From the IMG/VR virus record IMGVR_UViG_3300045988_101835: a stretch of DNA of 64,000 bases. One strand, given 5' to 3'. This document shows positions 55,210 to 57,034 of this stretch, piece by piece. Position 1 is the stretch's first letter. Each line of letters opens with the position of its first letter. Position numbers and translations under genes: made by a program. This DNA comes from a virus. The notes under the pieces were generated by a model that searched no databases, had not been told where the DNA came from, and saw only the letters and a program-made list of their open reading frames with translations.

Positions 55210-55878
55210 CGACTTCCCGACGTGGTTGCCGGGGGTCCCCAGCCTTGAAATGGTAGGTGCTGGGTTTTATATTGTGCACATTCCGGTTTTAGCTTGGTTT
55301 ATCCGTCCGGGTGTGGGTGCGTTGCTAGAGGAGTCTTTCCTACCGTAGGTTCCGTTTGCATAGCTGAATATCAGGCGTGGCGGCTTGGAGTAGCACGGCA
55401 ACAGCTAAGTATGGGTTCTTTTGTTTTCGCTGCAGTTAACGGACATATGGTTAGTCCTTGCTGGGTTTCTTATAAAGGGATTTCTCAGGGGTAGTGCAGT
55501 GTTTAACGAAGTTTGTTTATGGGGCATTATCCGTTCGCCACTATGCTTTGGCTATAAGGATTCATACTTTTTATACGTCTATGGTTTGTGTTCCTTGACA
55601 TAGTGAAGACGGCACCGTCGAGAGTGATACTCTTTCGCTTTTAACCTTTGGAGCTCACTCATCTTTTTCTTCAGGCAATTCCTTGTGCATGTTCTGGATT
55701 TAGCCTGTCACTCTCACTTGTTAGTGGCGTGTGCTGTCTTCACCTTTTTTTTTCAGTGGGACCTGCCTGAAAGTAGAGTAGGGTGTATGTGAATCAGGGG
55801 TTCGATTCCTTATACCGACTAAGTTCGTCGCTGGTTGGTGCTGGTTTGCAATATAGTGCCTTCGGGGTCCTTCTTGTT
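55210..55878 (+). ncRNA. non-coding spacer 1 of the tRNA locus (candidate structured RNA)
   Basis: 669 nt with no credible ORF and neutral composition. It contains local hairpins and one degenerate T-loop-like GGGGTTCGATTCC at 55797-55809. Confidence 0.3.
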
Positions 55879-55966
55879 GGAGAGTTGGCGGAGTTGGTCT
55901 AACGCGCCTGCCTACTAATCAGGTGTCCGGGTTTCCGGGCCGGGAGTTCGAATCTCTCACTCTCCG
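55879..55966 (+). tRNA. tRNA-Ser-type (class II), anticodon ACU as folded
   Basis: Acceptor GGAGAGT/ACTCTCC, discriminator G73, 3-bp D stem, 6-bp variable stem, T arm GGGAG-TTCGAAT-CTCTC, anticodon loop CT-ACT-AA (55912-18). C31.U39 are unpaired, so a 9-nt loop is an alternative. Confidence 0.65.
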
Positions 55967-56235
55967 CGCCGAGTTGTTTCCGGTTGTGCTCTGAATTTAA
56001 CTGGCGTCGTTCCCGAACGTATCGGGGGATGGTTGAGGTGATACCATCAGAAATCACCTGCGGGCAGACGCGTATTTGTAGGAGTTGACTTGCGTCTATA
56101 TCAGCAGGCTGCGGTTAAGATGTATGAGTTCACCGCTACGGTTGACTGTATTAAAACTCTATTCATCGGTGCTTGTTAAGCGCGCAATGACAGGCATGAC
56201 GTCCCTATCTGCAGTGGCGTGCGTAGGGCTTTTTA
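55967..56235 (+). ncRNA. non-coding spacer 2 (candidate structured RNA with an H-type pseudoknot)
   Basis: In 56028-56058, GATGGT-TGA-GGTGAT-ACCATC-AGAA-ATCACC forms two interleaved perfect 6-bp helices. Nested helices CCTGC/GCAGG and AGACGC/GCGTCT lie downstream. Confidence 0.3.
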
Positions 56236-56319
56236 GGAAAGTTGGCAGAGTGGTCGATTGCGCTGGTCTAGAAAACCAGTGATCCTTTAGGATTCGGGAG
56301 TTCGAATCTCTCACTTTCC
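56236..56319 (+). tRNA. tRNA-Ser (class II), anticodon AGA as folded
   Basis: Acceptor GGAAAGT/ACTTTCC, discriminator G73, perfect anticodon stem CTGGT/ACCAG, loop CT-AGA-AA (56268-74), variable arm ATCC-TTTA-GGAT, T arm GGGAG-TTCGAAT-CTCTC. Confidence 0.75.
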
Positions 56320-57008
56320 GCCGCCCCTCCGGTTGTTAGACCTAATTGGAAGTCGACTAAGATTAGGTTGAGGCAACAGTTGTCTCACTTGCGTTTGCTT
56401 AAGTGTGGCAATGAGAGGGTCCCATAGAGGGGTATACTCTTAAGATGTCGATGTAGGCTCTTGTGATGACGTCGGCAATCCTACGTAGATGCTTAGGAGA
56501 GGATACCGGATGGATTCGGTTCCGCCTTTCGGAGGTTGCAAACGATGATTGGTATGGGCTGATGTATTCCGAGGTTCGAGTCCTCCCTCTATACAATTTA
56601 AGCTTGGTTCTTTTTTACATGGAGGGTTTCCTGCATTTTCTAGGCTGGCCCGAAGCCTACTTCGAAGAAACCACCGACGCGCAAGGTGAGGGGCTACGGA
56701 GGATAGTAGACGGGGTGAAATTCCGCCGTCGAAGCCGATGGAACCGGATGCAGATACGGATAAGGCGTGCGTTCCTTTTGCGAGGTTCGGCGTTTCTGCT
56801 ACGCTCGTATTCGAGTACGGTACCTTCGAGGTACCGTTTCTTGCCATCCCCTTTTTGGCTGGTTAGGGTGAAGATCAGTCCGGTGCTGGTACGAGAAGTC
56901 AGCAGCAGCCCGTGACGGCTATATTGTTGCGGCGCGGTGAAGCTGTCCGATGTGGGAAATTCGGAGATCAGCGGGATGTCCTATTCTAGATGTGGGTGTC
57001 TGACATTA
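56320..57008 (+). ncRNA. about 690-nt candidate large structured RNA ending at a strong terminator
   Basis: Only overlapping ORFs on both strands with implausible products. It contains a tRNA-like domain (56424-56592) and three GGTGAA-N(2-6)-TCCG modules (56714, 56867, 56936). Composition is neutral. Confidence 0.35.
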
Positions 57009-57034
57009 GACGGGTGATTCCCGTCTTTTTTTTT
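57009..57034 (+). terminator. strong rho-independent terminator closing the RNA locus
   Basis: GACGGG-TGATT-CCCGTC followed by T9. Confidence 0.85.

What the first reader, a model, noticed from the sequence alone, without database searches (positions are those of the whole stretch)
55210..57034. About 1.6 kb of non-coding, neutrally composed sequence interleaved with the tRNAs and closed by a strong terminator: candidate large structured RNA(s)
In a genome with almost no intergenic space, three segments (55210-55878, 55967-56235, 56320-57008) lack any credible ORF. They contain only short or mutually overlapping ORFs on both strands with implausible products. They abandon the backbone T+G skew. 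They appear to be co-transcribed with the tRNAs from the promoter at 54812, and the unit ends at the best terminator in the window (57009-34). Large ornate RNAs of unknown function (GOLLD, ROOL) are known to reside next to tRNA genes in phages and prophages. I cannot match consensus sequences from memory, so this may be a member of such a class or something new.
Basis: partly seen in the sequence, partly recalled or inferred. Interest (0 to 1): 0.7.

Follow-up and report, generated by a model that had tools for sequence, protein, structure and literature searches.

The report
New structured RNA beside phage tRNA
Inside a gut-phage tRNA operon, about 360 bases directly after tRNA-Leu(CAA) encode a previously undescribed, intricately folded RNA conserved in two phage lineages, and a second folded module of about 100 bases follows a tRNA-Ser; most of the remaining 'non-coding 1.6 kb' is variable, dispensable spacer.

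Summary
The interval really is non-coding. Substitutions among relatives show no codon periodicity, whereas flanking genes show it strongly. It lies between a Bacteroidota-type promoter (54812-43) and the strongest terminator in the window (57008-34). The claim of 'neutral composition' is wrong: T+G is 0.58-0.63 against 0.604 for the genome.

It is not one large RNA. Element A (55211-55573), directly 3' of tRNA-Leu(CAA), is the only stretch present in every relative that covers this part of the region, in both known clades. It has 83 predicted pairs, 25 of them with compensatory changes. 97.9% of cells are paired against 42-52% in slid controls, and the column-shuffle z-score is -8.5. The + strand is the folded strand. 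It has no Rfam match, so it is not GOLLD, ROOL, tmRNA, RNase P RNA or an intron.

Element B (56323-56447), 3' of tRNA-Ser(AGA), is a ~100-nt three-way junction with 9 of 37 pairs compensatory. It is patchily present in both clades.

The rest shows little or no structural signal. It carries two tRNA relics, is deleted wholesale in some relatives, and is a landing pad for TnpB/IS605 elements.

Most likely, A and B are cut out of the tRNA precursor and act as stable phage RNAs. This parallels ROOL, GOLLD and T4 RNAC/RNAD. Their function is unknown.

The parts
54812..54843 (+). Bacteroidota-type promoter-like site (TTTG ... TATCTTTG) that would start the transcription unit
   Evidence: Pattern scans. 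The same 18-mer family occurs at 988-1005 and 57058-57075. Function is inferred, not shown.
54868..55116 (+). Small protein gene (82 aa), first cistron of the unit. It is not part of the RNA.
   Evidence: Substitutions concentrate at third codon positions (11/13/37, p = 3e-5). It is not conserved in clade 2.
55126..55210 (+). tRNA-Leu(CAA), the conserved 5' neighbour of element A. No CCA is encoded.
   Evidence: ARAGORN; Rfam tRNA 52.1 bits. It is adjacent to element A in every relative.
55211..55573 (+). Element A, a ~360-nt multi-domain structured RNA. 5' hairpins lie at 55213-55315. The central domain (55317-55406) is closed by GUGC/GCAC. The 3' domain (55408-55568) is closed by a 13-bp helix and followed by a U-run (55569-55573).
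   Evidence: Alignment A3 holds 12 distinct sequences from 2 clades. RNAalifold predicts 83 pairs, 25 compensatory. 97.9% of cells are paired against 42-52% when slid. Column-shuffle z = -8.5. Forward fold -68 against reverse -27 kcal/mol, with 21% G-U cells.
55574..55878 (+). Variable spacer ('seg1b'). It is an IS landing pad in relatives and is dispensable.
   Evidence: No similarity to clade 2. z = -1.3 and -0.5. It is replaced by a TnpB IS in L016. A miniature IS is inserted at the equivalent of 55630 in L001, L018 and L035.
55782..55816 (+). tRNA relic: an acceptor-stem plus T-arm minihelix with a GGTTCGATTCC T-loop
   Evidence: The T-loop motif occurs 4 times in 64 kb against 0.18 expected. 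ARAGORN uses it as a 3' half only at relaxed settings. In MAFFT alignment A1 it falls opposite an intact tRNA-like gene of clade 2 (gene identified by ARAGORN).
55879..55967 (+). tRNA-Ser(ACU)
55968..56235 (+). Spacer 'seg2', with no evidence of structure or function
   Evidence: Alifold z = -0.3. 3 compensatory pairs, within the shuffle range. No homologue outside clade 1. Absent in L035.
56236..56322 (+). tRNA-Ser(AGA)
56323..56447 (+). Element B: a ~100-nt three-way-junction RNA (closing helix 56325-30 with 56413-19) plus a small 3' hairpin (56426-40)
   Evidence: Homologues follow tRNA-Ser(UGA) in clade 2 loci L027 and L030. 9 of 37 pairs are compensatory among 3 distinct sequences. CM R1 finds one copy per genome. 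It is cleanly deleted (56321-56422) in L003/L004/L008.
56497..56594 (+). Degenerate class-II tRNA-like relic. The D-arm, T-arm and GGTTCGAGTCC loop are kept, but there is no 7-nt anticodon loop.
   Evidence: Rfam tRNA-Sec 20.2 bits against a threshold of 47, E = 0.95. ARAGORN finds it only at ps80, with a 4-base 'anticodon'. T-loop statistics. Alignment.
56761..56900 (+). Cluster of stable hairpins with a weak covariation signal; status uncertain
   Evidence: Alifold column-shuffle z = -3.95. Compensatory changes occur in the ACGGTACC/GGTACCGT and GCAGA/TCTGC helices. It is found only in clade 1 and is absent in L035.
57008..57034 (+). Intrinsic terminator closing the unit
   Evidence: Conserved in L008, L018, L019, L022 and L023.

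Best explanation
The interval is the distal part of one phage transcription unit running from the promoter at 54812 to the terminator at 57034. In it, tRNA genes alternate with non-coding modules of very unequal standing.

Element A (55211-55573) starts one base after the discriminator of tRNA-Leu(CAA). It is a genuine, selectively maintained RNA of about 360 nt with about 17 helices in three domains, and it represents a new RNA family. Element B (56323-56447) is a second, smaller structured RNA that follows tRNA-Ser(AGA).

The likely mechanism is as follows. Both RNAs are made as part of the tRNA precursor. Their 5' ends are created by tRNA 3' processing: an RNase Z-type cut after the discriminator, since no CCA is encoded. 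Element A's 3' end lies at the conserved closing helix plus U-run. The released RNAs persist as stable, trans-acting phage RNAs during infection. This is the same arrangement as the ornate ROOL and GOLLD RNAs of phage tRNA islands and the RNAC/RNAD species of the T4 tRNA cluster.

The remaining sequence (55574-55878, 55968-56235 and most of 56448-57007) is accessory spacer. It contains two decayed tRNA genes and is tolerant of deletions, insertions and TnpB/IS605 transposition.

Shown: the interval is non-coding; A and B have conserved folds on the + strand; element A is linked to tRNA-Leu(CAA) in every relative that covers this part of the region; the other parts are dispensable. Inferred: co-transcription, processing, stability and trans action. 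The molecular target is unknown.
For: Non-coding status.

Element A conservation. It is the only spacer stretch with similarity between clade 1 and clade 2, whose helicases are 58-59% identical. It is present in all clade-1 variants, including L035, which lacks everything from 55873 to 57966, and L016, where a TnpB IS replaces 55574-55875.

Element A structure: 83 pairs, 25 with double changes, several with 3-4 pair types; 97.9% of cells paired against 42-52% in slid controls; 0 of 500 shuffles reach the observed covariation. Alifold z = -8.5.

Strand: forward -68 against reverse -27 kcal/mol, with 213 of 996 G-U cells. This is the strand of the tRNAs.

Boundaries: the first helix starts at 55213, 3 nt after the tRNA. 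Conservation stops after the U-run. IS insertions in relatives fall just 3' of it, at 55572 and 55630.

Element B.

Transcription unit.

tRNA relics.

Precedents: ROOL and GOLLD are encoded in phages and prophages, often near tRNA islands, and their function is unknown (PMC12286853). T4 RNAC and RNAD also have unknown function (PMC9697503).
Against: There are no expression or processing data of any kind. Element A is known from only two related clades of uncultured phages, effectively three sub-lineages, so the number of independent compensatory events is modest. Its single-sequence fold is no more stable than shuffles (z = -0.55). No conserved protein partner lies next to it: the upstream ORF differs between clades, and the window encodes no recognisable RNA-binding or RNA-processing protein. 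No antisense target for its invariant loops occurs in the 64-kb window. A cis role in tRNA-Leu maturation or in transcription read-through cannot be excluded. The U-run after the closing helix is not a canonical terminator.
Confidence: 0.6

Rival explanations
1. The whole interval is functionless filler: decayed tRNA genes, IS scars and spacer that are transcribed and discarded.
For: Two tRNA relics are present. Relatives carry TnpB/IS605 insertions at the equivalents of 54707, 55572 and 55630. A 102-nt deletion, a ~200-nt insertion and loss of the whole 55873-57966 block occur in relatives. Within clade 1, divergence of seg1b, seg2 and seg3 (9-14%) is similar to third-codon-position divergence of neighbouring genes (7-21%). 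seg2 has z = -0.3.
Against: This fails for element A and element B. Both are conserved between clades whose helicases are only 58% identical, and both show many compensatory pairs and almost no broken ones. As a description of 55574-55878, 55968-56235 and most of 56448-57007 it is probably right.
Confidence: 0.1
2. Element A acts in cis rather than as a free RNA. It would be a structured 3' trailer that controls maturation or stability of tRNA-Leu(CAA), or a read-through (antitermination-type) element for the downstream tRNAs.
For: Linkage to tRNA-Leu(CAA) is invariable, with a 2-nt gap, in every relative. A conserved U-run follows the closing helix, upstream of further tRNAs. No trans target was found in the window.
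Against: About 360 nt with ~17 helices and long invariant single-stranded blocks is far more than known cis trailers or antiterminator RNAs need (established knowledge, not tested here). In L035 almost nothing tRNA-like lies downstream of it, yet it is retained.
Confidence: 0.15
3. It is a divergent member of a known RNA family: GOLLD, ROOL, a group I or II intron, tmRNA, RNase P RNA, a T-box, HEARO or a TnpB omega-RNA.
For: The context resembles GOLLD and ROOL, which lie in phage tRNA islands. The phage carries TnpB elements, inteins and homing endonucleases.
Against: Rfam 15 cmscan with permissive filters at E <= 10 on the window region, and at E <= 1 on a clade-2 array, returns only tRNAs and noise. 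ARAGORN finds no tmRNA. There is no similarity to the TnpB element or its right end. No gene is interrupted. The length of ~360 nt compares with ROOL at roughly 580 nt (from memory of the family descriptions; not tested or cited here) and GOLLD at more than 800 nt in many members (PMC12286853).
Confidence: 0.03
4. The segments encode small or recoded proteins that standard ORF calling misses.
For: A 150-aa ORF (56463-56915) and several 60-66-aa ORFs exist.
Against: There is no codon periodicity of substitutions in seg1b, seg2, seg3 or ORF 56463 (p = 0.27-0.84; element A alone is borderline at p = 0.052, with no ORF conserved across the clades); controls are significant (p = 7e-14 and 3e-5). 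Relatives carry non-3n indels and large indels inside ORF 56463. All three stop codons are scattered in every frame. No Pfam or PHROG family matches. The ORF in element A is not kept in clade 2.
Confidence: 0.02
5. The conserved element works at the DNA level, as a replication origin, packaging site or recombination site next to the replication genes.
For: It is located between helicase and methylase genes and the DnaB-like helicase.
Against: Covariation preserves pairing through G-U wobble on the + strand only: 21% of paired cells, and a reverse-strand fold of -27 against -68 kcal/mol. A duplex-DNA site would not show this. Single-stranded + strand DNA is not formally excluded. Cumulative GC skew does not turn here.
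Confidence: 0.03

Closest known systems
ROOL RNA (Rfam RF03087)
   Same: A large, multi-helix non-coding RNA of unknown function, encoded in phages or prophages next to tRNA genes and apparently without a dedicated protein partner (context from PMC12286853).
   Different: There is no covariance-model match even at E <= 10. Element A is about 360 nt, against roughly 580 nt for ROOL. No pseudoknots were detectable with the present alignment. It is known only from two clades of uncultured gut phages with Bacteroidota-type promoters. Oligomerisation was not tested.
GOLLD RNA (Rfam RF01998)
   Same: A phage RNA in tRNA islands, sometimes covalently linked to tRNAs in the same transcript. Element A is likewise physically joined to a tRNA.
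   Different: No model match. Element A is less than half the size of GOLLD. In element A the tRNA sits at the 5' end, not in an internal linker.
T4 RNAC / RNAD (stable RNAs of the T4 tRNA gene cluster)
   Same: Non-tRNA stable RNAs of unknown function in a phage (PMC9697503). From my own knowledge, they are encoded inside the T4 tRNA cluster and are released by tRNA-processing enzymes. The present phage also has a T4-like capsid and portal.
   Different: The T4 species are much smaller (roughly 120-140 nt, from memory). No sequence comparison was made here. Expression and processing of element A are untested.
tRNA-like processing signals (for example the MALAT1 mascRNA, or plant mitochondrial t-elements)
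   Same: The tRNA relics at 55782-55816 and 56497-56594 keep the acceptor and T-arm features that RNase P and RNase Z recognise. They could still serve as cleavage signals that punctuate the precursor (inference).
   Different: There is no evidence of cleavage. One relic is lost in L016 and both are in dispensable segments. They score below tRNA thresholds.

Membership tests
Conserved structured RNA (generic criterion) | Statistically supported covariation in a sequence-only alignment of homologues | tested here: met
   Element A: 25 of 83 pairs compensatory, 97.9% paired against 42-52% when slid, 0 of 500 shuffles reach the score, alifold z = -8.5. Element B: 9 of 37 pairs compensatory. seg2 does not meet the criterion (z = -0.3). 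seg3 meets it only locally, at 56761-56900. R-scape itself was not available.
ROOL (RF03087) | Match to the Rfam covariance model at or near the gathering score | tested here: not met
   No hit at E <= 10 in window 54600-57100, nor at E <= 1 in the clade-2 array.
ROOL (RF03087) | Location in a phage or prophage near tRNA genes | tested here: met
   Element A abuts tRNA-Leu(CAA) in a phage tRNA operon. The family context is taken from PMC12286853.
GOLLD (RF01998) | Match to the Rfam covariance model, with the conserved 3' domain; many members exceed 800 nt | tested here: not met
   No hit. The conserved element is about 360 nt.
ROOL/GOLLD-type RNA nanocage | Homo-oligomeric assembly of the RNA alone | not testable with these tools
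   This needs native gels, SEC-MALS or cryo-EM. The only lead is an invariant, predicted-unpaired CAUAUG palindrome at 55443-55448.
tRNA (RF00005 / RF01852), for the two relics | Cloverleaf scoring above the model threshold, with a 7-nt anticodon loop | tested here: not met
   56497-56594 scores 20.2 bits against a threshold of 47 and carries a 4-nt loop in place of the anticodon loop. 55782-55816 has only an acceptor stem and T-arm. The T-loop motif itself is present and significant.
tmRNA / RNase P RNA / group I and II introns / T-box / HEARO | Match to the respective Rfam model or ARAGORN tmRNA detection | tested here: not met
TnpB omega-RNA / IS605 end | Sequence continuity with a tnpB 3' end and transposon right end | tested here: not met
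   blastn and tblastx of the relatives' IS against the window hit only 2370-3517, 1862-1913 and 34058-34669, not the interval.
Stable RNAs processed from a phage tRNA precursor (T4 RNAC/RNAD type) | Encoded within a tRNA transcription unit | tested here: met
   Promoter 54812-43, terminator 57008-34, no full two-box promoter motif anywhere in the unit downstream of that promoter, and the same strand as the tRNAs. These are consensus matches only.
Stable RNAs processed from a phage tRNA precursor (T4 RNAC/RNAD type) | Accumulates as a discrete species released by RNase P, RNase Z or related enzymes | not testable with these tools
   No transcriptome data for this uncultured phage.

The most novel reading that the evidence does not exclude
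Element A is a third, independent class of large 'ornate' phage RNA tied to tRNA islands, after GOLLD and ROOL, and the first from phages of gut Bacteroidales. It would be delivered as a tRNA-Leu(CAA) fusion transcript and cut free by tRNA processing. It would then either self-assemble (the invariant unpaired CAUAUG palindrome is a candidate kissing site) or sequester a host factor such as a tRNA-directed defence nuclease or a ribosome. Together with element B and the anticodon-less tRNA-like elements, this would make the 'tRNA array' a battery of RNA-based counter-defence or translation-takeover devices rather than a simple codon supplement.
Probability: 0.2. Interest if true: 0.75.

Novelty: new variant of a known kind. 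Interest (0 to 1): 0.5.

Why it matters
Bacterial and phage non-coding RNAs of more than 300 nt with complex conserved folds and unknown function are rare. They include OLE, GOLLD, ROOL and HEARO. Two of them have recently turned out to form RNA-only cages, and both live next to phage tRNAs. A new, unrelated RNA in the same genomic niche, here welded to one specific tRNA, suggests that tRNA islands of phages are a recurrent home for large functional RNAs. It gives a compact, well-delimited candidate (about 360 nt, with clear 5' and 3' boundaries and 25 covarying pairs) for structural and functional work. It also shows that phage 'tRNA arrays' can hold much more than tRNAs: structured modules, anticodon-less tRNA-like relics and TnpB landing sites. 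The limits are its narrow known distribution (two clades of uncultured gut phages), the lack of a cultured host, and the absence of any functional clue.

Tried and rejected
1. Rfam at gathering and permissive thresholds, on the window and on a clade-2 array, gave only tRNAs. The 'Plastid-psbl-rps4' hits are the antisense of the tRNA-Ser T-arms.

2. A relaxed ARAGORN run proposed a tRNA-His with a 448-nt intron (55283-55819). I rejected it: the stems are poor, the 'intron' is element A plus spacer, and the 3' half is the tRNA relic.

3. Stop-codon reassignment was rejected.

4. I tested whether the segments are relics of the TnpB/IS605 element seen in relatives. There is no similarity.

5. Protein-level relics were sought by tblastx against clade-2 arrays and the rest of the window. 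None were found.

6. A conserved protein partner upstream was rejected, because the ORFs differ between clades. No RNA-binding or RNA-processing domains occur among 55 window ORFs.

7. Wider homologues were sought with four exact or gapped motif scans of IMG/VR, one scan of GTDB genomes and one protein-anchored metagenome scan. Only the same two clades turned up, plus one 88-kb contig binned in a Muribaculaceae MAG. All other pattern hits were chance matches, with nhmmer finding nothing in them.

8. A pseudoknot search by covarying antiparallel runs found nothing convincing.

9. Antisense targets of the invariant loops within the window: none.

10. Literature and supplement string searches for the invariant blocks gave no hits. 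Only 200 of 408 supplement files of PMC8040213 were searched.

11. A covariance model of the full element A was not built, because the alignment exceeds the 400-column limit. nhmmer was used instead.
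Full report
WHAT THE WINDOW IS. The 64-kb window comes from an uncultured phage of about 85 kb from gut samples. Nearly all genes lie on the + strand. It has a T4-like major capsid protein and portal, inteins with LAGLIDADG endonucleases, two TnpB/IS605 elements and a sigma-70-like factor. No cultured phage is close: capsid identity to any isolate is 25% or less. 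Promoter-like sites follow the Bacteroidota pattern TTTG ... TAnnTTTG. The only host hint is an 88-kb relative binned into a Muribaculaceae MAG.

CHECKING THE OBSERVATION. Four tRNA genes are present: Leu-UAA, Leu-CAA, Ser-ACU and Ser-AGA.

The three inter-tRNA segments are non-coding.
- All three stop codons are scattered in all six frames.
- The only long ORFs are a mutually antisense pair at 56440-56915.
- Among eight close relatives, variable sites show no three-base periodicity in seg1b, seg2, seg3 or ORF 56463 (p = 0.27-0.84).
- The neighbouring gene 57105-57539 gives p = 7e-14, and the small ORF 54868-55116 gives p = 3e-5.
- No Pfam or PHROG family matches the spurious ORFs.

A promoter-like site sits at 54812-54843 and belongs to an 18-mer family also found at 988 and 57058. 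No full two-box promoter motif lies anywhere between it and 57008; the single lone -7-like box, at 55119, sits just upstream of tRNA-Leu(CAA). The hairpin plus T9 at 57008-57034 is the top-ranked terminator of the whole window.

T+G is 0.58-0.63 in the segments against 0.604 +/- 0.04 genome-wide, and both skews are inside the 5-95% range. Single-sequence folding is also unremarkable, with z = -0.55, +1.12 and -0.72.

RELATIVES. Searches of GenBank phages, IMG/VR, metagenomes and GTDB genomes recover only two clades.
- Clade 1 has a helicase about 99% identical to the window's. It includes the window, L001, L003/4/5/8/15/21, L016, L018, L019-23 and L035.
- Clade 2 has a helicase 58-59% identical. 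It includes L007, L009-11 and L024-32.

Both clades carry a tRNA array with long spacers upstream of a DnaB-like helicase.

ELEMENT A. Only one spacer stretch is alignable between the clades. It is the ~375 nt immediately 3' of tRNA-Leu(CAA), at 70-80% identity with invariant blocks of up to 27 nt.

A sequence-only MAFFT alignment of 12 distinct sequences gives an RNAalifold consensus of 83 pairs.
- 25 pairs show changes on both sides that keep the pair, and several have three or four pair types.
- 97.9% of cells are standard pairs, against 42-52% when the 3' partners are slid by 1-3 columns.
- 25 pairs have double changes, against 3-6 in the slid controls.
- None of 500 shuffles reaches the observed covariation.
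- A column-shuffle control gives z = -8.5.
- Folding the reverse complement gives -27 against -68 kcal/mol, and 21% of paired cells are G-U. The + strand, which is the tRNA strand, is therefore the folded one.

The model has three parts:
- three 5' hairpins (55213-55315);
- a central domain closed by GUGC/GCAC (55317-55406);
- a 3' domain closed by a 13-bp helix (55408-20 with 55556-68), followed by a conserved U-run.

Conservation ends there. In relatives, IS elements have landed just beyond it, at the equivalents of 55572 in L016 and 55630 in L001, L018 and L035, leaving it intact. Element A is single-copy. It is retained in every clade-1 variant, including L035, which lacks the whole 55873-57966 block.

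It matches nothing in Rfam 15 at E <= 10. The invariant blocks are not found in the held literature.

ELEMENT B. The ~100 nt after tRNA-Ser(AGA) fold into a three-way junction. Homologues follow tRNA-Ser(UGA) in two clade-2 genomes. Among only three distinct sequences, 9 of 37 pairs are compensatory. A covariance model finds exactly one copy in each genome that has it. It is precisely deleted in the L003 group, so it is a discrete, patchily distributed module.

THE REST.
- seg2 (55968-56235) has no cross-clade homologue and no structural signal (z = -0.3).
- seg1b (55574-55878) has z = -0.5 to -1.3 and is replaced by a TnpB element in L016.
- seg3 beyond element B has a signal only at 56761-56900 (z = -3.95), with a few compensatory changes.

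The T-loop motif GGTTCRANTCC occurs four times in 64 kb against 0.18 expected. Two copies are in the tRNA-Leu genes. The other two are at 55799 and 56573, marking a tRNA minihelix relic and a degenerate class-II tRNA-like element that lacks an anticodon loop.

Within clade 1, these segments diverge about as fast as third codon positions of neighbouring genes. They also carry a 102-nt deletion, a ~200-nt insertion and the wholesale loss seen in L035. They are best read as accessory spacer and gene remnants.

HOW IT MOST LIKELY WORKS. The following is inference. One transcript starts at 54812 and ends at 57034. It carries a small ORF, three tRNAs and the non-coding modules.

No CCA is encoded after tRNA-Leu(CAA), and the first helix of element A starts 3 nt later. 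The endonucleolytic cut that matures the tRNA 3' end would therefore also create the 5' end of element A. The closing helix plus U-run would define or protect its 3' end.

The released ~360-nt RNA would then act in trans. This is the arrangement known for GOLLD and ROOL, which sit in phage tRNA islands and sometimes have covalently linked tRNAs, and for T4 RNAC and RNAD.

What element A binds is unknown.
- No partner protein is conserved next to it.
- No RNA-related domain is encoded in the window.
- No antisense target exists in the window.
- An invariant unpaired CAUAUG palindrome is a candidate self-association site, but this is speculation.

COMPARISON AND NOVELTY. Functionally and positionally, the closest things are ROOL, GOLLD and the T4 stable RNAs. 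Membership in any Rfam family was tested and not met. Element A, and the smaller element B, are therefore new RNA families of a known kind: phage tRNA-island non-coding RNAs of unknown function. Their known distribution is narrow.

VERDICT. There is a real and apparently undescribed large structured RNA here, but it covers about 360 nt, not 1.6 kb. It is accompanied by one small structured module. The remainder is dispensable spacer with tRNA relics.

Noticed in passing
window 2370-3517 and 33569-34747; relatives L003/L004 (insertion at the equivalent of window 54707), L016 (~55572), and L001/L018/L035 (55630): The phage carries two TnpB/IS605-family elements (Pfam OrfB_IS605 plus Cas12f1-like TNB). 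Relatives have further full-length copies and ~165-nt miniature derivatives (left end plus right end, ending GTATGTCAA) inserted in the tRNA region. One insertion replaces the first two bases of tRNA-Leu(UAA).
   Followed up: partly
window 55879-55967 and 56236-56322: Both tRNA-Ser genes have A at the wobble position (anticodons ACU and AGA). From my own knowledge, this is unusual for bacteria outside tRNA-Arg(ACG). All four tRNAs are class II (Leu or Ser). They match the phage's favoured codons: TTG is 37% of Leu, TCT 30% and AGT 17.5% of Ser.
   Followed up: partly
L007 4779-4884 (= L010 4289-4391), clade 2: A tRNA-like gene with intact acceptor, D and T arms and an encoded CCA, but with a 29-nt insertion in the anticodon loop (Rfam tRNA 24.8 bits, below threshold). 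In alignment A1 the window's minihelix relic (55782-55816) falls opposite this gene.
   Followed up: partly
window 54868-55116: An 82-aa ORF between the promoter and tRNA-Leu(CAA) is a real gene: substitutions are concentrated at third codon positions. It has no family match and is not conserved in clade 2.
   Followed up: yes
window 3595-5880 and 8109-11414: Two large ORFs contain inteins with LAGLIDADG homing endonuclease domains. One sits in a DNA polymerase III delta'-like clamp-loader protein. NUMOD-type homing endonuclease motifs occur elsewhere in the window.
   Followed up: no
window 988-1005, 54826-54843, 57058-57075: A phage-specific 18-mer (TTAAYTTTTYTATMTTTG) contains the Bacteroidota -7 box and recurs with zero mismatches at three intergenic sites. 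It is likely a shared promoter class.
   Followed up: partly
window 54770-54801: tRNA-Leu(UAA) is followed directly by a T9 run, so its T-arm and acceptor stem may double as the terminator of the preceding transcription unit.
   Followed up: no
L035 (CANQWS010000007.1, 88,410 bp): A near-complete relative of this phage is binned in a rabbit-gut Muribaculaceae MAG. It lacks the block equivalent to window 55873-57966: both tRNA-Ser genes, seg2, seg3, the terminator and gene 57105-57539.
   Followed up: partly
window 48902-50533 and 50382-52067: The helicase-like and DNA-methyltransferase-like ORFs overlap by about 150 nt as called. This could reflect a later true start or a frameshift.
   Followed up: no
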